Assembly (NCBI GenBank): GCA_023663205.1
Contig: JAMPHX010000002.1
Location: 1-61,405 of the forward strand
Length of the DNA stretch: 61,405 nt
Direction: 5' to 3'
Source: Corallococcus sp.
GTDB lineage: Bacteria > Bacillota > Clostridia > Christensenellales > CAG-314
Shown: positions 789-10,745 of the stretch, one piece after another
How the letters are laid out: each line of letters begins with the position of its first letter
How positions within the stretch are numbered: position 1 is the stretch's first letter
Notes under the pieces: model-generated
Databases searched by the model: none
What the model was told of the DNA's origin: nothing
The model's input: the letters and a program-made list of their open reading frames with translations, nothing else
Translations under genes and position numbers: made by a program

Positions 789-827
789 CGAAAAACAATT
801 AAAAGCAACGAGTTTTTCTCGTTGCTT
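789..827 (-). terminator. Rho-independent terminator abutting the tRNA-like 3' end at 832
   Basis: Stem AAGCAACGAG (803-812) / CTCGTTGCTT (818-827). On the minus strand the hairpin is followed by TTTAATTGTTTTT. It lies 4 nt past the ...CGCAACCA end of the tRNA-like copy. Confidence 0.55.
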
Positions 828-831
828 CGAT

Positions 832-1023
832 TGGTTGCGGGAATGGGATTTGTAAGGAGCAAAGCGACGGAATAGGGATTTTTGCAAAAAAAATCCCGTC
901 ACCTCATTGTCTGTCACAATTCCTGCGAAATTGCTTGGGACATCACTACGTTCCTTGCACGGGTTATACTTCGCTTCGCTCGGCTGAGGAGCCTGATGAA
1001 CTACCGGACTAGGGGTTCCCGCG
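832..1023 (-). pseudogene. Degenerate tRNA-fMet-like copy with internal insertions
   Basis: The minus strand reads CGCGGGA-ACCCCTAGTCCGGTAGTTCATCAGGCTC-[21-nt insert CTCAGCCGAGCGAAGCGAAGT]-ATAACCCG...[~110 nt]...ACAAATCCCATTCCCGCAACCA. The 5' and 3' ends align to the tRNA-fMet at 5820-5897. D and T stems do not pair. The acceptor stem keeps pairing through a G7>A / C66>T double change. Confidence 0.4.
970..994. repeat. 25-bp motif TTCGCTTCGCTCGGCTGAGGAGCCT, copy 1 (identical copy at 5942-5966)
   Basis: Exact 25/25 identity between 970-994 and 5942-5966. In both places the motif follows a tRNA-fMet 5'-half-like sequence on the minus strand. Confidence 0.8.
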
Positions 1024-1107
1024 ACAACGATTTGCGCAGCAAATCTTGCAACCGCGGTTTTTGCGGTTATATAAAACAAAAAGTACCGAGGACTACTCGA
1101 TACTTTC

Positions 1108-1134
1108 AATGGTTGCGGGGATGGGATTTGAACC
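1108..1134. repeat. attL core (27-bp direct repeat AATGGTTGCGGGGATGGGATTTGAACC)
   Basis: Identical 27/27 to 5818-5844. It corresponds to the T-loop through CCA end of tRNA-fMet (reverse complement GGTTCAAATCCCATCCCCGCAACCA). Confidence 0.85.
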
Positions 1135-1216
1135 GTCTAAGATATAAAAAACCAACTCCGCTTACAGTCCAAATTACAGGCTTAAAACAACAAAAATACA
1201 TTTTAGGCAAAACTGC

Positions 1217-1238
1217 TGACACTCGTTTTGACACTCAC
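1217..1238 (+). promoter_or_regulatory. Putative integrase arm-type sites (2x TGACACTC), left arm
   Basis: TGACACTCGTTTTGACACTCAC lies ~85 bp inside attL. The same tandem TTTGACACTC pair occurs ~105 bp inside attR (5691-5714) in the same orientation. Confidence 0.4.
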
Positions 1239-1409
1239 TTTATTTAACTATATTTTTCCATATTTCCAGCGCCCGACATGTCGGGCGCATTTTATTAGAT
1301 CGAATTTACTTTACCTATGTATACGCAACGCACTTGCCGCAAATTGTCCGCGCGGCTTCGCTTCTTGCGCGGAAAATTTGTTTTTCGGCACTAGTGCGTT
1401 GCTTGCTAT

Positions 1410-1853
1410 CTATCGTCGTTGACGTTCGTCATACCATATAGGCGCATTTTCTTTTAGTCGGAAATCCTCGTAATCCTCGATACGTCCATATGCAACATAC
1501 TTGTCTGTTATCTCGGCTACAATGTTAAATTCGGGCGGGCGGATTGTGTCCCAAGCCTCATCGTAAAACGTCAAAATGTAATTGACATCAAAATATGCAT
1601 TTCGATTGCGAGCACGGGCTATTGCGTAGTTTTCAACAGCCAATTCACACATTTTAGCGAGTGCGTCTTGCCGTATGTTTTTTATTAACAAATATATGCT
1701 TATTATCTCTGCGCGCATTTCTTCCGAGGTTTGCTTTTTGTAAAATTGCGGCGTTATTGTGCGACAAATTAAGTAAATTGTTTTCGCTATACGGCTTTTA
1801 TCTTGCTCGGAAGTTATGCTATTTAAAGTTATAGTTAAATCGTTCATAGCCAC
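1410..1853 (-). CDS. Hypothetical island protein (147 aa)
   Basis: Intact ORF, 2 nt downstream of the replisome-organizer gene on the same strand. No recognisable motif. Confidence 0.6.
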   Translation of the reverse strand: MAMNDLTITLNSITSEQDKSRIAKTIYLICRTITPQFYKKQTSEEMRAEIISIYLLIKNIRQDALAKMCELAVENYAIARARNRNAYFDVNYILTFYDEAWDTIRPPEFNIVAEITDKYVAYGRIEDYEDFRLKENAPIWYDERQRR

Positions 1854-1855
1854 TC

Positions 1856-2575
1856 CTAAATCTTTGCAAGTTCGTCAATCCAACTCTCTGGCGGCTCGGT
1901 CTTCGTTTTACCTTTGCCCTGCTCATATGTACCCCAGTAACGCAAAAGCGATTTCCAATTTTTGACGCCTTGCCAGTTTTCCTTTTCGTAGTAGTAAAAA
2001 AATCTTGCAGGGTCTACGGCACTGTTTATTTCTTTGCAATAGTTTTCTACTTCTTCAAATGTCGGCGGAATAAAAGTATTTTGTGTGTTTTGTTTTAGCG
2101 GATTTTCCGCTATAAAACTCTCTCCTTGGCTAATCTTAACTGGATTAAACTCATCTAAACTATACTGTGGCGACAAATTTGCATTTTTGGCTGACAAATC
2201 CGCGTTTTTGTCGGCAAGGTTGTTGCCAACAAGAAAACTATACGGCTTGCCCTTTTCAATTAAAAGCAATCTTTTTTCGTTTGTATACAGTGTGTCTTTT
2301 CTACGTGACGGGCGTATCTGATTGCTTACCAACCAATCACGCACTACAACGGGATTACCTTTTCCGAAAGACAGTAAAAAGCCGTTTGTTATAAGTTCGT
2401 CAAGGTGCTTTTGTTCGCAACGCGTATTGCGAACAATGCTCCTATAATTGTTTATAAAACCGTCATCGTCGGCGTGTTGGCACAAATGCAAATACAACAT
2501 CTGCGCAGAATGAGACAGTTCAAGAAAGTCGTCGGTCTCTGTCACGTCTACCGAAAACATTCTCCTATTTGCCAT
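1856..2575 (-). CDS. Phage replisome organizer / replication initiation protein
   Basis: The N-terminus MANRRMFSVDVTETDDFLELSHSAQMLYLHLCQHADDDGF matches the Phage_rep_org_N pattern. The C-terminus FEEVENYCKEINSAVDPARFFYYYEKENWQGVKNWKSLLRYW resembles the conserved phage C-terminal module. Confidence 0.75.
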   Translation of the reverse strand: MANRRMFSVDVTETDDFLELSHSAQMLYLHLCQHADDDGFINNYRSIVRNTRCEQKHLDELITNGFLLSFGKGNPVVVRDWLVSNQIRPSRRKDTLYTNEKRLLLIEKGKPYSFLVGNNLADKNADLSAKNANLSPQYSLDEFNPVKISQGESFIAENPLKQNTQNTFIPPTFEEVENYCKEINSAVDPARFFYYYEKENWQGVKNWKSLLRYWGTYEQGKGKTKTEPPESWIDELAKI

Positions 2576-2933
2576 TTTTGTTTACCTCTTTTTTTAATTT
2601 TTCGTAGTGAGATTTTAAAATATTTGCTTTGTTGCGCCAACTTATTATTTCTTCTTGCAATTTGTCCAATTCGTCTTCATCCGATACGTTACCGCCTAAC
2701 TTCTTGCGCAGACGCGCATTTTGTACTTGCAAGTTAAGTATTTTGCGTCGCAATTTGGCAATAGTTGTGTCGCGCTCGGCAAGTTTGCCCGTATAATCTC
2801 CGATATCGGCGGCAAGCCCGAACAGGCACATTGAATAATGCTTTACCAATTCCGTCGTTTGCTCGGTCACCGAAAGCGTTAAATCTTCTTTAATTTCGTT
2901 TACGTTTTTGTATTTGGGTTTAAAGTCTTCCAT
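2565..2933 (-). CDS. Hypothetical coiled-coil protein (122 aa)
   Basis: Intact ORF overlapping the downstream gene start by 11 nt. It has heptad-like charged sequence (KLRRKILNLQVQNARLRKKL). Confidence 0.6.
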   Translation of the reverse strand: MEDFKPKYKNVNEIKEDLTLSVTEQTTELVKHYSMCLFGLAADIGDYTGKLAERDTTIAKLRRKILNLQVQNARLRKKLGGNVSDEDELDKLQEEIISWRNKANILKSHYEKLKKEVNKNGK

Positions 2934-2986
2934 TTGTTTTGCTCCTTTATGTTAGTAGTTATCTGTGAATTTTTAATTGAACGGTT

Positions 2987-3027
2987 GCTCCGACGTCGAG
3001 CAAATTTCACTGTATACAGTGATTTTG
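2987..3027. repeat. IR-L: 41-bp inverted repeat, partner at 4373-4413
   Basis: GCTCCGACGTCGAGCAAATTTCACTGTATACAGTGATTTTG matches the reverse complement of 4373-4413 at 38/41 positions. It contains the palindromes CGACGTCG and TCACTGTATACAGTGA. It is intergenic. Confidence 0.9.
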
Positions 3028-3115
3028 ACGCAACGTCATCGATACCGTGCGCGTTGTTTTTCACTGAATGTTTAGCGGCGTAGTTCATAGACGCCGCAAA
3101 TGTCAATGTGCTTTT

Positions 3116-3448
3116 TCATTCTCCGCCACGTAGCAATTTGTTGAATGTTTCTTCGTACCGTGTAGCAAGTTCGGCAAATCCCTGCTCAAATACAAGTTCG
3201 CAGTCTACTTTGATTTCGTCAAGTATTCCGTGCATTGCATTAAGCAAAGTTGCCTGTACGTTGACATTACGTTCTTTGGCAAGTATCTGCAACAGATTGC
3301 GCAAATCGGATATGCGCAACAACGTAAAGTCACCCATAAAGTTTGATGTCACGTCGACGTCGCGGCGCAGTTGCTCCAACTGCGCGCGCATTTCGTTAAC
3401 TTTTAATTGTAATTCTGTCTGAGGGCTTGTTTTAGTCATTATCCGCAA
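3116..3448 (-). CDS. Hypothetical island protein (110 aa)
   Basis: Intact ORF in the cro-side operon. It overlaps the upstream ORF by 17 nt. Confidence 0.6.
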   Translation of the reverse strand: MRIMTKTSPQTELQLKVNEMRAQLEQLRRDVDVTSNFMGDFTLLRISDLRNLLQILAKERNVNVQATLLNAMHGILDEIKVDCELVFEQGFAELATRYEETFNKLLRGGE

Positions 3449-3632
3449 TCTCCATAACCATATACAAATCCTGTATCTCTCCTTTTACTGTTGGTATTTG
3501 ACTGTCGACGTAATCCGTTAAAGAGTCAAATCTCTTTTTAAATTCCTCATCTTCCATAAGACAGGGGCAAAAGGTTAAGTTTTCAAGATACCTATAAGCG
3601 TACCAGTATACCTCATTTGTTTTCACTTGCAT
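3432..3632 (-). CDS. Hypothetical island protein (66 aa)
   Basis: Intact ORF 2 nt downstream of the cro-like gene. This is the position where an excisionase or regulator is often found, but no HTH is evident. Confidence 0.5.
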   Translation of the reverse strand: MQVKTNEVYWYAYRYLENLTFCPCLMEDEEFKKRFDSLTDYVDSQIPTVKGEIQDLYMVMEIADND

Positions 3633-3634
3633 AG

Positions 3635-3847
3635 TTAATTACCTCCGAAAAATATATTGTTAAGTTCGTCAAAGTCAATGCCGAATATCCTTGACATTTT
3701 AGCCATAGTAAACGGCGTAGGCTTGTAGCGGTTCATTACCCAACCGTTGACGGTAGAAGGCGTTACGCCGATAGCCTCGGCGAACTCCTTTTGCCTATAA
3801 CCTAACTTGCGGATTAACTTAACTAATTGTGCATTGTGTTGTTTCAT
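3635..3847 (-). CDS. XRE-family HTH regulator (Cro-like)
   Basis: LIRKLGYRQKEFAEAIGVTPSTVNGWVMNRYKP is a classic HTH_3 motif. It is 70 aa and divergent from the cI-like gene. Confidence 0.8.
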   Translation of the reverse strand: MKQHNAQLVKLIRKLGYRQKEFAEAIGVTPSTVNGWVMNRYKPTPFTMAKMSRIFGIDFDELNNIFFGGN

Positions 3848-3980
3848 TTTCTTTTACTCCTTATTTTGTATTTAACGCCCCAATATGGGTCGTTTGATAG
3901 AATATACAATATATTTTGGGTCACGTCAACCCATTTTGGGGCAAATATGGTAAAATATATAAAAAAAAGGAGTAGAAACA
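3848..3980. promoter_or_regulatory. Divergent promoter/operator region of the cI-like / cro-like switch
   Basis: CCCA-N3-TGGG half-site palindromes lie at 3879-3889 (CCCAATATGGG) and 3930-3940 (CCCATTTTGGG). TGGGT...ACCCA lies at 3917-3933. A TAAAAT -10-like box sits at 3951-3956 and a GGAG RBS precedes the ATG at 3981. Confidence 0.55.
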
Positions 3981-4328
3981 ATGTTTAAAGTGCTTTTAAA
4001 AAATCTTCGAGAAGAAAAAAAACTAACACAAGAGAATGTTTGCGAAAAACTTAACGTATCAAGAAACTGCTACGCCTCTTATGAGCAAGGGCGCACCGAA
4101 CCAAACATAGAAATGCTTGTAAAGTTAGCCAACTTGTTTGAGTGTTCCGTCGATTATCTGCTCGGCAGGGTGTCCGACATCGATACAATTGAAATACAAA
4201 CAGATTTGACGGAACAGCAAAAAGAGTTGCTAAGCAACTTCGACAGACTCAACACAGAGGGCAAAGCGCGTCTGCTCGGCTACCTGCTTGCCCTGCTCGG
4301 TATGCCTGCGTATTCGCGCAAGCAGTGA
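3981..4328 (+). CDS. XRE-family HTH repressor (CI-like)
   Basis: LREEKKLTQENVCEKLNVSRNCYASYEQGRTEPNIEMLVKLANLFECSVDYLLGR is an HTH_3 domain, followed by a C-terminal oligomerisation-like tail. Confidence 0.8.
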   Translation: MFKVLLKNLREEKKLTQENVCEKLNVSRNCYASYEQGRTEPNIEMLVKLANLFECSVDYLLGRVSDIDTIEIQTDLTEQQKELLSNFDRLNTEGKARLLGYLLALLGMPAYSRKQ

Positions 4329-4372
4329 ATTATACAGGCATTGGGCGCGCCCATCGGAATGGCAGCACAAAG

Positions 4373-4413
4373 CAAAATCACTGTATAGAGTGAAATTTGC
4401 GCGACGTCGGCGC
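4373..4413. repeat. IR-R: 41-bp inverted repeat, partner at 2987-3027
   Basis: CAAAATCACTGTATAGAGTGAAATTTGCGCGACGTCGGCGC lies in the intergenic region between the cI-like gene and int. Confidence 0.9.
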
Positions 4414-4700
4414 CGGATGAGATAATATATTTCACAGAAAGATAACAACGGCAAAAGCCGTGTTTAATAAAATAGCCCGTTGTCGGGCGTTTCAAGATTT
4501 GTCGGACAGAACGGGCAAAGGAGACAATATGAATATAAAAAAATCTTGAAACACTTGCAGCAAGGCTGAAAGAAGATTGCATTGTTTTAAATGCAATACT
4601 CGGCGCAATGGATTGTTACGAAGATTGCGCCGCCGAATACTCCGAACCCTCGGACATGTCAAAACGAATGCCAGCAGTTTTGCCGAAGGAAGGAGAAGAA

Positions 4701-5723
4701 GTGAAAAGATACAAGGGCAAAACAATCCGCCGCCGCTCCGACGGGCGTTGGTGGGTAAGGTTCAGGCAGAACGGCAAACAAGTAAGCGTATACGGCAGAA
4801 CGCAAGCGGAATGTTTGGACAATCTGAAAGAGGCATTGAAACAGCAAAACAAAGGCAATAAGCCGACAAGCAATTTGACGCTCGGAGAATGGCTCGACAA
4901 ATGGCTTAAACTGTACAAGATAGGCAAAGTTAAGCCGTCGACACTCGAACAAATGCAACGCTATTTAAAAGTTGTTGAGCCGATAGCAAACATCAAATTG
5001 AAAAAGTTAACTGCAATAGACGTACAAGAGTTTTTGAACTCGATAGACAAGCCGCGGAAGCGTGAAAAACTGCACTTGTTTTTAAAAGACGCTTTAACAA
5101 AGGCAGTCAAAAACAAGTTAATTACAAGCAATCTGTTTGACGGCGTAACATTGCCCAAGAGAACAAAAAAGCAGTCAATCGCATTAACTCACGAAGAAGA
5201 ACGTCTATTTGTTGCCGAATGTCGGGAACGTCCGCAGGGTGACTTATTTTTATTCTGTTTGTATCAAGGGTTACGGCTCGGCGAAGCGTTGGCATTAACT
5301 TACAGCGACATAGATTTCAATAAAAAGACAATTACGGTAAATAAATCGCTTGACGGTTTCGGAAACGTCACAACGCCCAAAACTGCGACATCGACACGCA
5401 CTTTGCCATTGTTCAACCGTGCGGCTAAACTGCTTAGCAAGACGGGACAAGGAAATATATTTGTATTTCGGCGTAAGACGTATCAAAATACGATGTTGAA
5501 AATATGCGAAAAGTTAAATTTACAAAATGTCAGCGTGCATACTTTACGGCATACATTTGCCACACGTTGCGCCGAAGCAGGCGTTGCCGTGAAAGTCGTT
5601 CAAAAGTGGTTAGGACACTCAACGCTTGAAATGACATTAAATACGTATACTCACGTCAATGCAGATTTCGAGGCGAAAGAAGCAATAAAATTTGACACTC
5701 AATTTGACACTCACGAAGAATAA
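4701..5723 (+). CDS. int: Tyrosine-type phage integrase (ORF open from 4608; probable GTG start at 4701 after a GGAGAAG RBS)
   Basis: The N-terminal arm-binding-like sequence is KRYKGKTIRRRSDGRWWVRFRQNGKQV. The catalytic region is GLRLGEALAL ... HTLRHTFATRCAEAGVAVKVVQKWLGHSTLEMTLNTYTHV (R..HxxR..Y). The gene is adjacent to a tRNA. Confidence 0.9.
   Translation: MKRYKGKTIRRRSDGRWWVRFRQNGKQVSVYGRTQAECLDNLKEALKQQNKGNKPTSNLTLGEWLDKWLKLYKIGKVKPSTLEQMQRYLKVVEPIANIKLKKLTAIDVQEFLNSIDKPRKREKLHLFLKDALTKAVKNKLITSNLFDGVTLPKRTKKQSIALTHEEERLFVAECRERPQGDLFLFCLYQGLRLGEALALTYSDIDFNKKTITVNKSLDGFGNVTTPKTATSTRTLPLFNRAAKLLSKTGQGNIFVFRRKTYQNTMLKICEKLNLQNVSVHTLRHTFATRCAEAGVAVKVVQKWLGHSTLEMTLNTYTHVNADFEAKEAIKFDTQFDTHEE
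5691..5714 (+). promoter_or_regulatory. Putative integrase arm-type sites (2x TTTGACACTC), right arm, inside the int 3' end
   Basis: TTTGACACTCAATTTGACACTCAC is the same tandem motif as at 1217-1238. Confidence 0.4.
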
Positions 5724-5817
5724 TTTTTTCCAAAACAAAAGAAAAACCGCCCATAATTAGGCGGTTAAACTGTGCAAAACTACGCAAATAGACGTTAAAA
5801 GCCGTAGTTTTGCCGCT

Positions 5818-5844
5818 AATGGTTGCGGGGATGGGATTTGAACC
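5818..5844. repeat. attR core (27-bp direct repeat)
   Basis: Identical to 1108-1134. It forms the 3' end of the tRNA-fMet gene. Confidence 0.85.
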
Positions 5845-5897
5845 TCATGACCTTCGGGTTATGAGCCCGATGAGCTACCAGACTGCTCTACCCCGCG
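5820..5897 (-). tRNA. Initiator tRNA-fMet (anticodon CAT)
   Basis: The minus strand reads CGCGGGGTAGAGCAGTCTGGTAGCTCATCGGGCTCATAACCCGAAGGTCATGAGGTTCAAATCCCATCCCCGCAACCA. It has the C1:A72 mismatch and three G:C pairs closing the anticodon stem, both initiator hallmarks. It is 78 nt, with one extra A in the 5' strand of the T stem. Confidence 0.85.
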
Positions 5898-5941
5898 ATA
5901 TAATATTGTTGCCCTGTTTTGTTACGCCATCGGGCTCGGCG

Positions 5942-5966
5942 TTCGCTTCGCTCGGCTGAGGAGCCT
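5942..5966. repeat. 25-bp motif TTCGCTTCGCTCGGCTGAGGAGCCT, copy 2
   Basis: Exact copy of 970-994. Confidence 0.8.
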
Positions 5967-5975
5967 CGATTCGCC

Positions 5976-6004
5976 ACCAGACTGCTCTACCCCGCGATAT
6001 AATA
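5976..6004 (-). repeat. Duplicate of the tRNA-fMet 5' end (first 21 nt) plus 8 nt of upstream TATTATAT box
   Basis: 29/29 identity between 5976-6004 and 5877-5905 (ACCAGACTGCTCTACCCCGCGATATAATA). Confidence 0.85.
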
Positions 6005-9374: not shown

Positions 9375-10745
9375 TGATTTTTCAACAATTTGATAAAATT
9401 TTCTTAATTATGCCTTGTGTTGGCGTTAATTTATCTTCTAAAATCGGAATACGGTACGTTCCGATGCCGACGTCGGATAGTATCTTGCGACGTTTCCGAG
9501 AAATTTTTTCTTGTGTTTTCCTATTTGTCCGAATTACCAAATTCAGAAAATTGCCGCCATTGTACATAAAACATCTCAATTGCGCGATGCGCTCTGCCCC
9601 GGCAATGCTCCACCCCATTGGACGACTTGACATACGTTTGGAAAGAACGTGCGAGACATGACCTTCCGCAGAACAAACAACTTCTTCGGAAAAATCGATC
9701 TCCGAGTAATTGTTGAACAGGTAAATCAAATTTTGTCGTATCGATGCGTCCGCGCCGTTGAATACCGCTTGCTGCATGATCGATTCCAATTCGTTCTCAG
9801 CCGAACAAGATTTCTCCTTTATAAGACTTCTCAGACGTATGTAATTTCTTTTATTCCCCGCGCTTGCAGCCGTTAGGCTTCGATACGCGTGGAATTTGTC
9901 TAAATGATATTTGGACGTTATCGAACCACTCCGTTCCCGCTTTAATCCAAGCAGCGCCGTCGCCGGACAGATGAACACACACTCGATTGCCGTATCGATT
10001 AAACACATATCGCGCCACTCTATCCCAAATGTCGTCTGCATCTGACAACGTCGAAAAATAACGCGCATTAATAAGCGCCGTTCGATTGCTCCCGGCATCA
10101 CGTCGCCCTTCATGAACATATACTAACTTTACTTCTGCATTTTTACCGTCGTTCAAATGAATATGATCCTCGTCCGCCTCGATATAAATCTGACGGTATT
10201 GCCTTTCGCAATTGTTGACAACTTCGCATTTTTCTTCGTCAATTTTATTTCGGTGCACTACGTTAAATGCGGTTTGACGCGAACAGCCGCTACGCCAAAA
10301 CTGCTCGATGCAGAATCGGATAAAATTTTCGCTTGCAAGCCGTTCTCTATGCGAGAATATCTGCGGATATTTAGCGCATCATCAACGGCAACAAAGTAAC
10401 AATCGTTTACTTTGTCGTAATACTGATTTCTGACAAGTTGAACGTTTCCCATTGACGTCAATAACCTTCTTGTCTGCTTGCTTTTTATCACAACGTTCGA
10501 AGGACGATTCCTTGAATAATCGTCCTCAATCAGTTTACACATTTGTTCGACAAAGTAACAACCGACACCGTTAACGCATTGTTGTGTCTGCTCCACTATA
10601 TCCTGTAAGTTCATTTTCTTTTGTGTTATCGAGTTCGCAATAAGCATTAACTCTTGTCGGGCCATTGCTAAAACAGCGTCCACAAGTTCCGTATTTTGCA
10701 TATTTTTTCTCCGTTTTTATCTAATTTTATCAAAATTCTGGCGAG
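9375..10745. mobile_element. IS remnant around the broken transposase (boundaries approximate)
   Basis: A candidate terminal inverted repeat is AATTTGATAAAATTT (about 9386-9400) versus AATTTTATCAAAATT (about 10723-10737). No target-site duplication was identified. Confidence 0.35.
9382..10701 (-). pseudogene. ISLre2/UPF0236-family transposase, split into three ORFs by frameshifts
   Basis: ORFs 10258-10701, 9851-10258 and 9382-10119 read consecutively as one transposase. Motifs are YIEADEDHIHL, SGDGAAWIK and HLDKFH. Two frame changes are needed to join them. Confidence 0.75.

What the first reader, a model, noticed from the sequence alone, without database searches (positions are those of the whole stretch)
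1108..5844. Minimalist 4.7-kb int/cI/cro/replisome-organizer island with intact att sites at tRNA-fMet: candidate phage satellite rather than prophage
Seen in sequence:
- Perfect 27-bp direct repeats (1108-1134 and 5818-5844) equal the T-loop-to-CCA end of tRNA-fMet.
- Tandem TTTGACACTC repeats sit ~85-105 bp inside both ends in the same orientation, as expected for integrase arm sites of an attP.
- All nine ORFs are intact: int, a cI-like/cro-like divergent pair, four small unknowns, a replisome organizer and a 147-aa unknown.
- There is no capsid, portal, terminase, tail, holin or lysin gene.

Inference: 4.7 kb is far too small for a phage. The int-repressor / cro-...-replication layout mirrors the left half of PICI-type satellites, and minimalist satellites of about 5-6 kb have been described in vibrios. 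A Firmicutes-type island this small with a DnaD-like organizer would be an undescribed satellite or mobilisable class, unless it is a freshly truncated prophage.
Basis: partly seen in the sequence, partly recalled or inferred. Interest (0 to 1): 0.72.

Follow-up and report, generated by a model that had tools for sequence, protein, structure and literature searches.

The report
Five-kilobase phage-derived integrative mini-replicon family
The 4.7-kb block at the initiator tRNA gene is an intact member of a recurring family of very small mobile elements that carry only an integrase, a phage-type on/off switch and a replication module, so they must borrow another element's machinery (perhaps a phage's) to spread, though no helper has been shown.

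Summary
Perfect 27-bp direct repeats (1108-1134, 5818-5844) match the 3' end of tRNA-fMet, and paired TTTGACACTC arm sites lie inside both ends. Eight credible intact genes are present; none is structural, lytic, packaging or conjugative.

It is not a freshly truncated prophage. The same int / cI / cro / small ORFs / initiator / 147-aa layout recurs in at least five other divergent elements of 4.7-7 kb. They are bounded by perfect repeats at different tRNA genes, use three different recombinases, and always end just after the 147-aa gene.

The "DnaD-like organizer" has the plasmid RepA_N layout. It has a winged-helix N-terminal domain and a disordered linker, and the DNA encoding that linker carries iteron-like repeats. 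The 147-aa protein is a rare, confidently modelled protein with no detectable fold match. In real phages it always follows such an initiator.

Best reading: a cargo-free, self-integrating, self-replicating mini-element that needs outside help to transfer. Phage-satellite status is plausible (about 0.4) but untested: I found no circular junction, no virome hit and no pac/cos or terS signal. It fails the PICI and PICMI definitions. I rate it a new variant of a known kind, of moderate interest.

The parts
1108..1134 (.). attL core: partial copy of the tRNA-fMet 3' end (27 bp)
   Evidence: Perfect direct repeat of 5818-5844 (D1)
1135..1256 (-). P' arm of attP, including two arm-type sites (TGACACTC) at 1217-1238
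   Evidence: D10. The block is 77-81% identical in nucleotides to the same position in L002, L004 and L008. The motif is also present at the end of L050.
1269..1288 (.). GC-rich hairpin, terminator-like on the + strand
   Evidence: 8 pairs, 7 of them GC, followed by ATTTTATT
1327..1400 (-). Long imperfect hairpin that starts 10 nt after the stop codon of the 147-aa gene. Role unknown; candidates are terminator, single-strand initiation site, oriT-like site or pac-like site.
   Evidence: -25.8 kcal/mol, z = -4.6. Every family member has a long hairpin at this position (z -2.9 to -9.9), without sequence conservation in the window.
1410..1847 (-). p147: conserved partner of the initiator and last gene of the element; no detectable fold match
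   Evidence: 49-61% identical to the last gene of L001, L002, L004, L008 and L050. In phages it always follows a 234-295-aa initiator-type gene. AlphaFold2 pLDDT 93.7. No match in PDB or BFVD. Only 49 clusters among 1.84 billion representatives.
1856..2575 (-). Replication initiator (DnaD-like / RepA_N-like replisome organizer), 239 aa
   Evidence: phrog_8489 at 4.6e-39 and phrog_5708 at 1.1e-36, 'DnaD-like helicase loader'. Model: N-terminal domain 5-118 confident, linker 119-166 disordered, helical C-terminal domain. Top Foldseek hits are the staphylococcal plasmid RepA N-terminal domains 5kbj, 4pt7, 4pql and 4pta (E 0.08-0.2, probability 0.7-0.9). Weak profile hit to the DnaD C-terminal domain 2zc2.
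2168..2216 (.). Candidate origin: two 18-nt direct repeats 21 nt apart, framed by a 10-nt inverted repeat, in the DNA that encodes the disordered linker
   Evidence: Equivalent repeat clusters lie at the same relative place in the initiator genes of L002, L004, L008 and L050. This matches the pSK41-type 'ori within rep' layout (PMC5703833).
2565..2933 (-). p122: coiled-coil protein specific to the family; overlaps the initiator start by 11 nt
   Evidence: 32-46% identical to the 147-173-aa called gene just upstream of the initiator in L001, L002, L004, L008 and L050, and found in none of the phage loci. Only coiled-coil noise in Pfam.
2987..3027 (-). Copy A of a repeated regulatory cassette (palindrome TCACTGTATACAGTGA at 3007-3022), upstream of the p122-initiator-p147 operon
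   Evidence: I1: 41 nt, 93% complementary to 4373-4413. The palindrome occurs only at these two places in 61 kb (0.09 expected).
3116..3439 (-). p110 (107 aa from ATG 3439): helical protein specific to the family
   Evidence: 25-40% identical to genes at the same position in L001, L004, L008 and L050. No family hit.
3432..3632 (-). p66: small acidic ORF, unique to this member
   Evidence: No homologue in related elements and no family hit.
3635..3847 (-). cro-like HTH regulator (70 aa), first gene of the leftward operon
   Evidence: PF01381 HTH_3 at 6.5e-14. 63% identical to the L008 counterpart.
3877..3942 (.). Switch region: inverted 14-nt operator candidates GCCCCAAWATGGGT (3877-3890 on +, 3929-3942 on -) and a leftward promoter-like site (3929 to 3901)
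3981..4328 (+). cI-like repressor (115 aa): HTH plus a short C-terminal tail, with no S24 peptidase domain
   Evidence: HTH_3 at 1.5e-15. RstR-family hit at 2.4e-18, below the curated cut-off. 52-67% identical to the L004, L008 and L050 counterparts.
4373..4413 (+). Copy B of the repeated regulatory cassette (palindrome at 4378-4393), upstream of int
   Evidence: I1
4657..4687 (-). Inverted copy of the P' arm block, just upstream of the int start codon; candidate Int autoregulation site
   Evidence: I2: 31 nt, 90% complementary to 1203-1233. The same arrangement is conserved in L004, L008 and L050.
4701..5723 (+). Tyrosine integrase (340 aa from GTG 4701; alternative ATG at 4608)
   Evidence: PF00589 at 2.6e-25, PF14659 at 1.9e-10, phrog_1 at 7.9e-79. 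70% identical to the integrases of L004 and L008.
5693..5714 (+). P arm: two arm-type sites (TTTGACACTC twice) inside the last codons of int
   Evidence: D10. Same position in L004 (686-706) and L008 (5776-5797).
5818..5844 (.). attR core, inside the intact tRNA-fMet gene (5820-5897, - strand)

Best explanation
The 4,710 bp from 1108 to 5817 (one 27-bp core repeat plus 4,683 bp between the repeats) is a complete, probably active member of a family of phage-derived mini integrative replicons.

Shown:
1. It has a lambda-style attP of about 256 bp. This comprises the 27-bp core (the tRNA-fMet 3' end), two arm-type sites on each side, and a tyrosine integrase whose last codons contain the P-arm sites. 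Integration regenerates the tRNA.
2. It has a divergent cI-like / cro-like HTH pair with inverted operator candidates.
3. It has a replication cassette. The initiator has the RepA_N/DnaD layout, with iteron-like repeats in the DNA encoding its disordered linker. It is followed by p147, a conserved partner protein.
4. It has no cargo and no transfer, packaging, structural or lysis genes.
5. The same architecture and the same end point recur in divergent relatives at other tRNA genes, with modules exchanged between them.

Inferred:
- In the integrated state the cI-like protein keeps the leftward operon off. It lacks a LexA-type cleavage domain, so release probably needs an anti-repressor or another external signal.
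- On derepression, cro-p66-p110 and then p122-initiator-p147 are expressed.
- In this member a duplicated cassette with the same palindrome sits in front of both int and the replication operon. This suggests the two are co-regulated.
- Int excises the circle. No excisionase was recognised.
- The initiator binds the repeats inside its own gene and, with p147, recruits the host helicase and primase.
- The amplified DNA then leaves the cell by machinery it does not encode. The most likely route is headful packaging of multimers by a co-resident or infecting phage, as for PICMIs and marine VEIMEs.
- It re-integrates at the tRNA in the new host.

Confidence by step: about 0.8 that it is a discrete, mobile integrative replicon family; about 0.4 that the vehicle is a phage capsid.
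For: Intact ends and attP anatomy.

Recurrence of the unit:
- L001: 5,344 bp between perfect 29-nt repeats.
- L004 and L006: 5,866 bp between perfect 25-nt repeats at tRNA-Leu(CAA), with host mur/ddl genes beyond.
- L008, L002 and L050: same order and same P' arm, followed by different tRNA-type 3' ends.
- L062: about 7 kb, with a serine recombinase.
- Sources.

Shared core genes by BLAST: int, cI, cro, p110, p122, initiator and p147.

Modular mosaicism:
- Int and arms are about 70% identical to L004 and L008, while the initiator is only 34% identical.
- The initiator is 62-73% identical to L001 and L002, while the L001 integrase is only 22% identical.

Phage origin of the cassette: homologues of p147 at 36-49% identity lie directly after an initiator-type gene in contigs that carry terminase, SSB, Erf and similar genes.

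Initiator architecture and iterons: read against PMC5703833.

Precedents for satellites without packaging genes or with RepA_N initiators: PMC10803314, PMC9618062, PMC7145576.

No cargo or defence genes.
Against: - I obtained no direct sign of excision, replication or transfer. No contig carries the circular junction and no contig has terminal overlap.
- IMG/VR has no match to the arm block and no close integrase.
- The JGI metagenome scan found only phage-type p147 homologues, none from a mini-element.
- No excisionase, terS, or pac/cos similarity to any fetched phage locus. Nucleotide matches are confined to the p147 coding region.
- Known family members are few, about 6-10 distinct, and all come from uncultured samples.
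- In L008 the junction next to int does not show the expected tRNA.
- The structural link to RepA_N is weak (Foldseek E 0.08-0.2), and Pfam RepA_N does not match.
Confidence: 0.55

Rival explanations
1. Integrative plasmid-like or mobilisable element whose transfer does not involve phage particles. It excises and replicates as a RepA_N-type episome. It then moves by conjugative mobilisation in trans (an oriT-like hairpin recognised by another element's relaxase), by natural transformation after host lysis, or in vesicles.
For: - The initiator has the plasmid RepA_N layout, and its best fold hits are plasmid RepA proteins.
- Every member has a long hairpin after p147, of the kind seen at oriT or single-strand origins.
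- Streptococcus thermophilus islands with a similar gene set transfer by natural competence (PMC13376191).
- Chromosomal recombinase + RepA_N pairs were first read as conjugative-transposon-like (discussed in PMC7145576).
- The element is absent from IMG/VR.
Against: - No relaxase, coupling protein or recognisable oriT.
- The regulatory and replication genes are of phage type. p147 homologues outside the family were found only in phage contexts.
- The hairpins are not conserved in sequence across the whole family.
Confidence: 0.25
2. Immobile relic: a lineage of decayed prophage left arms that persists mainly by vertical descent. It may be kept because the repressor gives immunity or because removal is neutral.
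For: - All recognisable functions are phage early functions.
- No excisionase was found.
- Few members are known.
- Nearly identical copies of the L004 element in four samples show small internal deletions.
Against: - Six divergent members end at the same place, right after p147, at 49-61% p147 identity. Independent deletions would not do that.
- In the window, L001 and L004 the att repeats are perfect.
- The window, L001, L002, L004 and L008 end in five different tRNA-type 3' sequences (tRNA-fMet and tRNA-Leu(CAA) identified). Across the family three recombinase types are used. Modules are shuffled between members.
- All eight genes are open in the window.
Confidence: 0.12
3. Host-serving genetic switch of the SpyCI type. 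The element excises and re-integrates with growth state to modulate expression of the adjacent gene, here tRNA-fMet, rather than mainly to spread.
For: SpyCIM1 has a comparable phage-like set without structural genes. It cycles between integrated and episomal states (PMC4689407, PMC3430984).
Against: - Integration here regenerates an intact tRNA, so excision would not change the gene product.
- Relatives sit at different tRNAs.
Confidence: 0.05

Closest known systems
PICMI (phage-inducible chromosomal minimalist islands of Vibrionaceae; PMC10803314)
   Same: - Very small integrative element.
- Only excision, regulation and replication functions.
- No terS, capsid-remodelling or structural genes.
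- It offers a concrete transfer mechanism: rolling-circle concatemers packaged by the headful.
   Different: - PICMI core is Int + AlpA + primase-type replication protein, with integration next to fis in Vibrio.
- This element has a cI/cro pair, a RepA_N/DnaD-like initiator + p147, tRNA targets and a Bacillota-type host (inferred).
- PICMIs usually carry accessory or defence genes; this element carries none.
- No gene is shown to be homologous.
PLE of Vibrio cholerae (PMC7145576)
   Same: - A proven satellite whose replication initiator is a RepA_N-family protein binding iterons.
- That paper explicitly speculates that chromosomal recombinase + RepA_N pairs in Firmicutes are cryptic satellites.
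- The relative L062 also uses a large serine recombinase.
   Different: - PLEs are about 18 kb with many genes, a non-coding origin and dependence on ICP1.
- No sequence similarity.
- The window element uses a tyrosine integrase, and its candidate origin lies inside the initiator gene.
PICI / SaPI and the Streptococcus thermophilus islands StCI (PMC10085698, PMC13376191)
   Same: - Integrase next to a divergent repressor pair, followed by a replication module.
- Flanked by att repeats.
- No phage structural genes.
   Different: - No primase-replicase, terS or capsid-morphogenesis gene.
- Half the median PICI size of 9.5 kb.
- StCIs are 7-20 kb and often carry defence genes.
RepA_N theta plasmids of Firmicutes (pSK41 type; PMC5703833)
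   Same: - Initiator with a winged-helix N-terminal domain, a dispensable linker whose DNA holds the Rep boxes, and a helical C-terminal domain.
- Best fold hits are pSK41/pTZ2162 RepA.
   Different: - Pfam RepA_N does not match.
- The element is integrative, has a phage-type switch and carries the extra partner p147.
- No partition or copy-control RNA was identified.
SPP1-type phage replication module (G38P organizer, G39P loader, G40P helicase; PMC3561973)
   Same: - An origin-binding organizer is followed by a small partner protein.
- The origin lies within the organizer gene (my recollection for SPP1).
- p147 sits where a loader would sit.
   Different: - No helicase gene in the element.
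- p147 matched nothing in sequence or fold searches of solved structures, so I found no resemblance to any solved protein, G39P included.
- The loader role is inference only.
VEIMEs (virion-encapsidated integrative mobile elements of marine bacteria; PMC9618062)
   Same: Small integrase-bearing elements without capsid genes, with plasmid-like replication, and some with no known hijacking genes.
   Different: - VEIMEs are defined by being found as concatemers inside virions. That was not observed here.
- Different hosts and gene families.

Membership tests
PICI (five SatelliteFinder core components; PMC10085698) | Integrase | tested here: met
   PF00589 at 2.6e-25 and phrog_1 at 7.9e-79
PICI | Regulation module homologous to alpA, merR or stl | tested here: inconclusive
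   A divergent pair of XRE-type HTH_3 proteins is present. Homology to Stl, AlpA or MerR profiles was not tested with SatelliteFinder's own models.
PICI | Primase-replicase module | tested here: not met
   No primase or helicase domain in any ORF. The replication protein is DnaD/RepA_N-like instead.
PICI | Small terminase subunit | tested here: not met
   No terminase family above threshold in Pfam, PHROGs or NCBIfam. The only trace is a Terminase_5 hit at E 0.012 on the HTH of the cro-like protein, which is noise.
PICI | Capsid-morphogenesis gene | tested here: not met
   No hit
PICMI (PMC10803314) | Integration next to fis; core of Int + AlpA + primase-type replication protein | tested here: not met
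   Integration is at tRNA-fMet. No AlpA or primase hits.
PICMI / VEIME | DNA found in virions as concatemers; transfer depends on a helper phage | not testable with these tools
   The only indirect check was negative: no match in IMG/VR to the arm block or to a close integrase.
PLE | RepA_N-family initiator binding iterons | tested here: inconclusive
   Top fold hits are RepA N-terminal domains, but weak (E 0.08-0.2). Iteron-like repeats are present. Pfam RepA_N does not match.
PLE | Large serine recombinase, about 18 kb, Vibrio cholerae / ICP1 system | tested here: not met
   Tyrosine integrase, 4.7 kb
Functional temperate prophage | Terminase, portal, capsid, tail and lysis genes between the att sites | tested here: not met
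   None among the eight genes between the repeats
RepA_N-type replicon (pSK41 type; PMC5703833) | Winged-helix N-terminal domain of about 120 aa, a linker encoded by origin DNA with Rep boxes inside the rep gene, and a helical C-terminal domain | tested here: inconclusive
   The domain layout matches. Repeats lie in the DNA encoding the linker here and in four relatives. Fold similarity is weak, there is no sequence-family match, and binding is untested.
Integrative mobilisable or conjugative element | Relaxase and/or a cognate oriT; coupling protein or type IV secretion genes | tested here: not met
   No such protein family. An oriT mimic cannot be excluded; long hairpins are present.
Lambda-type tyrosine-integrase attP | Core identical to attB, flanked by arm-type sites bound by an N-terminal arm-binding domain | tested here: met
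   The 27-bp core and arm doublets on both sides are conserved in relatives that have different cores. The arm-binding role of the Int N-terminus is inferred, not tested.

The most novel reading that the evidence does not exclude
These elements would be the smallest class of phage satellites in Gram-positive bacteria. They are cargo-free, about 5 kb, and hold only a recombinase, a cI/cro switch and a RepA_N-like initiator with its partner p147. A helper phage of gut Clostridia, possibly one carrying the related initiator/p147 cassette, would derepress them. They would then be packaged as multimers by the headful without any satellite-encoded packaging protein. This would confirm the 2019 speculation that chromosomal recombinase + RepA_N pairs in Firmicutes are cryptic satellites. 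p147 would be a new type of replisome-recruiting protein.
Probability: 0.3. Interest if true: 0.7.

Novelty: new variant of a known kind. Interest (0 to 1): 0.55.

Why it matters
- If these elements are mobile, they mark a lower bound on what an integrative hitch-hiking element needs: recombinase, switch and replicon. They would extend the 'minimalist satellite' idea from marine Vibrio to uncultured gut Bacillota.
- They would escape current satellite finders, because the element holds at most two of the five PICI core components.
- They give a testable case for the proposal that recombinase + RepA_N pairs in Firmicutes chromosomes are cryptic satellites.
- The 147-aa protein is rare and confidently modelled, has no detectable fold match, and is always coupled to a phage or plasmid-type initiator. 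That makes it a well-defined target for replication biochemistry.
- If the elements turn out to be immobile, the finding reduces to a tidy family of prophage-derived relics.

Tried and rejected
1. Nucleotide search of the whole element against GenBank phages and PLSDB plasmids (blastn, distant mode): no match.
2. Exact-protein look-up of the initiator: not on record. The first genome-contig scan with the single protein found nothing.
3. Fold search of p147 against PDB and BFVD, and profile search against PDB sequences: only noise. I therefore dropped the idea that p147 is a known helicase loader, an ArpU-like regulator or a terS.
4. Rfam on the flanks, for the odd tRNA-like sequences: nothing except the real tRNA.
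5. PADLOC and NCBIfam on the unknown proteins: no defence or cargo function.
6. Search for pac/cos-like DNA shared with the fetched phage loci: matches lie only inside the p147 coding region.
7. Search for circular or concatemeric contigs: no terminal overlaps. L050 simply breaks at the 29-31-nt inverted arm repeat.
8. IMG/VR scans for the arm block and for close integrases: none. The JGI metagenome scan returned only phage-type p147 homologues.
9. I considered whether the 41-nt inverted repeat (2987-3027 / 4373-4413) bounds an invertible segment or a nested transposon. I rejected this in favour of a duplicated promoter/operator cassette. Both copies point the same way relative to their downstream genes, the similarity extends to about 75 nt with gaps, and relatives lack it.
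10. I considered whether the third, 81% copy of the core at 830-856 is an old att scar. I rejected this: it is the 3' end of a diverged tRNA-fMet-like sequence with its own terminator.
11. Homology search with p122 found only one relative through the word index, so I did not attempt a structure.
12. Host identification failed. Housekeeping proteins of the window are singletons at 90% identity and carry no names.

Full report
**1. The observation**

The window carries one tRNA gene, tRNA-Met(CAT), at 5820-5897 on the minus strand (ARAGORN; Rfam tRNA, 61 bits). Its sequence begins CGCGGGG and ends CCCCGCAACCA, which gives the C1·A72 mismatch typical of initiator tRNA. The last 25 nt of the gene plus 2 nt downstream (5818-5844) are repeated perfectly at 1108-1134 (D1).

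Inside each end lies a doublet of TGACACTC in the same orientation: 1217-1238 and 5693-5714 (D10). Exact TTTGACACTC occurs only at these ends in the 61 kb.

Between the repeats lie eight credible genes:
- int, 4701-5723 (+), with an alternative ATG at 4608
- a cI-like HTH protein, 3981-4328 (+)
- on the minus strand, cro-like 3635-3847, p66 3432-3632 and p110 3116-3439
- after a 182-bp gap, p122 2565-2933, the initiator 1856-2575 and p147 1410-1847

It has no homologue and lies over a regulatory repeat, so I do not count it. Four profile libraries give no structural, packaging, lysis, conjugation or defence hits.

**2. The unit recurs**

The closest homologues of the initiator and of p147 were traced to their contigs.

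- L001: initiator 62% identical. Layout is int - HTH - HTH - 141 - 125 - 152 - 242 - 147 aa, between perfect 29-nt repeats (49-77 and 5393-5421) that look like a tRNA 3' end. The unit is 5,344 bp.
- L004 and L006: int (70% identical to the window's) - 48 - HTH - HTH - five small ORFs - 249 - 146 aa, between perfect 25-nt repeats at the 3' end of tRNA-Leu(CAA). The unit is 5,866 bp, with murein ligase and Ddl genes beyond.
- L008, L002 and L050: same order and same end.
- L062: a variant of about 7 kb that starts with a large serine recombinase and ends with a 234-aa initiator and a 156-aa p147 homologue, followed by host-like genes.

BLAST shows that int, cI, cro, p110, p122, initiator and p147 are shared in the same order. 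Homologues of p110 and p122 occur only in these small elements.

In every member p147 is the last gene. It is followed by hairpins, the P' arm and the att core. The P' arm block (GAGTGTCAAAACRAGTGTCAGCAGTTTTGCC...) is conserved in the window, L002, L004, L008 and L050. The core that follows differs: tRNA-fMet, tRNA-Leu(CAA), and two other tRNA-type 3' ends.

Modules are shuffled:
- The window shares its integrase and arms with L004 and L008 (about 70%) but its initiator with L001 and L002 (62-73%).
- Its initiator is only 34% identical to that of L004.
- The L001 integrase is only 22% identical to the window's.

This is the pattern of a recombining population of mobile elements. It is not the pattern of independent prophage truncations.

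**3. Relation to real phages**

More distant p147 homologues (36-49% identity) sit in contigs with terminase, SSB, Erf, methylase and similar genes. These were found in Logan contigs (L009, L011, L015, L051), IMG/VR, JGI metagenomes and Clostridia MAGs.

In the loci whose genes were listed (L009, L011, L015, L051), p147 always directly follows a 238-295-aa gene of the replisome-organizer type (DUF6291, Lin1244_N or unannotated). More early genes follow it.

The initiator/p147 pair is therefore a phage replication cassette, and the small elements end exactly after it. I found no full-length prophage with this integrase. The best IMG/VR integrase match is 31% identical.

**4. The replication module**

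- The 239-aa protein matches PHROG 'DnaD-like helicase loader' families at 1e-36 to 5e-39.
- Its AlphaFold2 model has a confident N-terminal domain (residues 5-118), a disordered linker (119-166) and a helical C-terminal domain.
- The best Foldseek hits are the N-terminal domains of the staphylococcal plasmid RepA_N initiators 5kbj, 4pt7, 4pql and 4pta. The scores are weak (E 0.08-0.2, probability 0.7-0.9).
- A profile search weakly touches a DnaD C-terminal domain, 2zc2.
- The DNA that encodes the linker holds two 18-nt direct repeats 21 nt apart, inside a 10-nt inverted repeat (2168-2216).
- Repeat clusters occupy the same place in the initiator genes of L002, L004, L008 and L050, with different sequences.

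In pSK41-type RepA_N plasmids the Rep boxes lie centrally within rep, and the encoded linker is dispensable (PMC5703833). I therefore infer an origin inside the initiator gene, with specificity co-varying between members.

p147 is more conserved than the initiator (61% against 34% with L004). This fits a partner that contacts a conserved host protein, but that is inference. Its model is very confident (pLDDT 93.7), yet it matches nothing in PDB or BFVD. The whole superfamily is only 49 clusters among 1.84 billion representatives, all stand-alone proteins of about 60-200 aa except one marginal 557-aa match.

**5. Integration and regulation**

In the circular form attP would span about 256 bp: 1135-1238, the core, and 5693-5817. 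The P-arm sites lie in the last codons of int here, in L004 and in L008.

A 29-31-nt inverted copy of the P' arm block lies just upstream of the int start (4657-4687). It is conserved in L004, L008 and L050. This suggests autoregulation by Int, which is inference.

The cI/cro intergenic region has inverted GCCCCAAWATGGGT boxes and a leftward promoter-like site. The cI-like protein has no S24 peptidase domain, so induction by LexA-type self-cleavage is unlikely.

One feature is specific to the window. A cassette that contains the palindrome TCACTGTATACAGTGA occurs twice, at 2987-3027 upstream of the p122 operon and at 4373-4413 upstream of int. Each copy points towards its downstream gene. I read this as a duplicated promoter/operator that couples int to the replication operon. 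No excisionase was recognised.

**6. How it probably works**

Shown: an integrase/attP module, a switch, a replicon, no transfer genes, and a recurring family.

Inferred: derepression, then excision, then episomal replication from the internal origin using the host replisome, then exit by borrowed machinery, then re-integration at a tRNA gene.

The route of exit is the open point.
- Precedents exist for satellites without packaging genes: PICMI, packaged by the headful as concatemers (PMC10803314), and marine VEIMEs (PMC9618062).
- A satellite with a RepA_N initiator is known: PLE (PMC7145576).
- Phage-like islands that spread by competence are known: StCI (PMC13376191).
- I found no junction contig, no virome hit and no pac/cos-like similarity.

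I put the phage-capsid route at about 0.4, non-phage hitch-hiking at about 0.25 and an immobile relic at about 0.12.

**7. Comparison and novelty**

The element fails three of the five PICI core components (PMC10085698) and fails the PICMI definition. It works like a minimal satellite or an integrative plasmid, but it is not a member of any named family that I could test.

Barth et al. 2019 already speculated that Firmicutes chromosomal recombinase + RepA_N pairs are cryptic satellites. I found no paper describing this family.

I classify it as a new variant of a known kind.

**8. Context**

The flanks are ordinary chromosome: TrpS, sugar-acid and glycosidase genes, and an IS fragment. The host is an uncharacterised lineage, because its proteins are singletons at 90% identity. 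Relatives of the cassette come from Clostridia/Bacillota MAGs of animal guts. The 'Firmicutes-type' assignment is therefore inference.

Noticed in passing
window 826-1040 (- strand), with its own terminator hairpin at 801-829: A roughly 200-nt tRNA-fMet-like sequence. It has the 5' acceptor/D-arm part and the 3' T-arm/acceptor/CCA part of the neighbouring tRNA, separated by about 125 nt of insert. The acceptor stem keeps pairing through a change on both sides (G7-C66 to A-T). Its 3' end is the 81% third copy of the att core (830-856). There is no Rfam or ARAGORN hit, and the fold z-score is -2.7. It could be a pseudogene, an interrupted tRNA or an unknown RNA.
   Followed up: partly
window 5868-5905 vs 5967-6004, and 970-994 vs 5942-5966: The promoter-proximal 38 nt of tRNA-fMet (upstream TATTATAT plus the first 30 nt or so of the gene) is duplicated 99 bp upstream at 92% identity. 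The copy is followed by the same 25-mer (TTCGCTTCGCTCGGCTGAGGAGCCT) that forms the start of the insert in the tRNA-like sequence at 826-1040. This suggests an old rearrangement linking the two tRNA-like loci across the integration site.
   Followed up: partly
window 9382-10119 (-): A 245-aa ORF matches only the C-terminal half of ISLre2-family transposases (3.5e-20). It is probably an IS fragment about 3.5 kb from the element.
   Followed up: no
L001 5476-5506 and 5555-5585: Just outside the att repeat of the L001 element there are two 31-nt repeats containing TGACACT doublets. This is the arm-type motif of the window-type integrase, although the L001 integrase is unrelated (22% identity). It may be a scar of a second, window-type element once integrated in tandem.
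   Followed up: no
L008 5553-5767: The int-proximal junction of the L008 element shows the conserved P arm but no tRNA. It abuts a 503-aa serine recombinase gene. Only CCGCCAA is shared with the tRNA-type core at the other end. This may be a secondary-site insertion, a rearrangement or a chimeric assembly.
   Followed up: partly
L004 vs L005 / L006 / L007: The same 5.9-kb element occurs at 99.4-100% identity in four different samples. L005 and L007 have internal deletions of about 250 bp and 160 bp among the small ORFs between cro and the initiator. So that region is dispensable or decaying.
   Followed up: partly
L002 1950-2010, L004 6075-6150, L050 4015-4125: Three members share a long inverted repeat built on GAACAG / CTGCTG units (for example AGAACAGACGAACAGCAGAACAGC ... 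GCTGCTGCTGCGGCTGCT) downstream of p147. The window has a different long hairpin at the same place. This may be a conserved cis-acting site of unknown role.
   Followed up: partly
L062 4593-6407: The serine-recombinase variant of the family carries a 604-aa protein with no Pfam match between the regulators and the initiator. This is possible cargo or an extra replication function.
   Followed up: partly
L004 3857-4162: A 101-aa ORF has weak IrrE/ImmA-type metallopeptidase hits (Peptidase_M78, E 0.0015). If real, some members may carry an ImmA-like anti-repressor protease, which the window element lacks.
   Followed up: no
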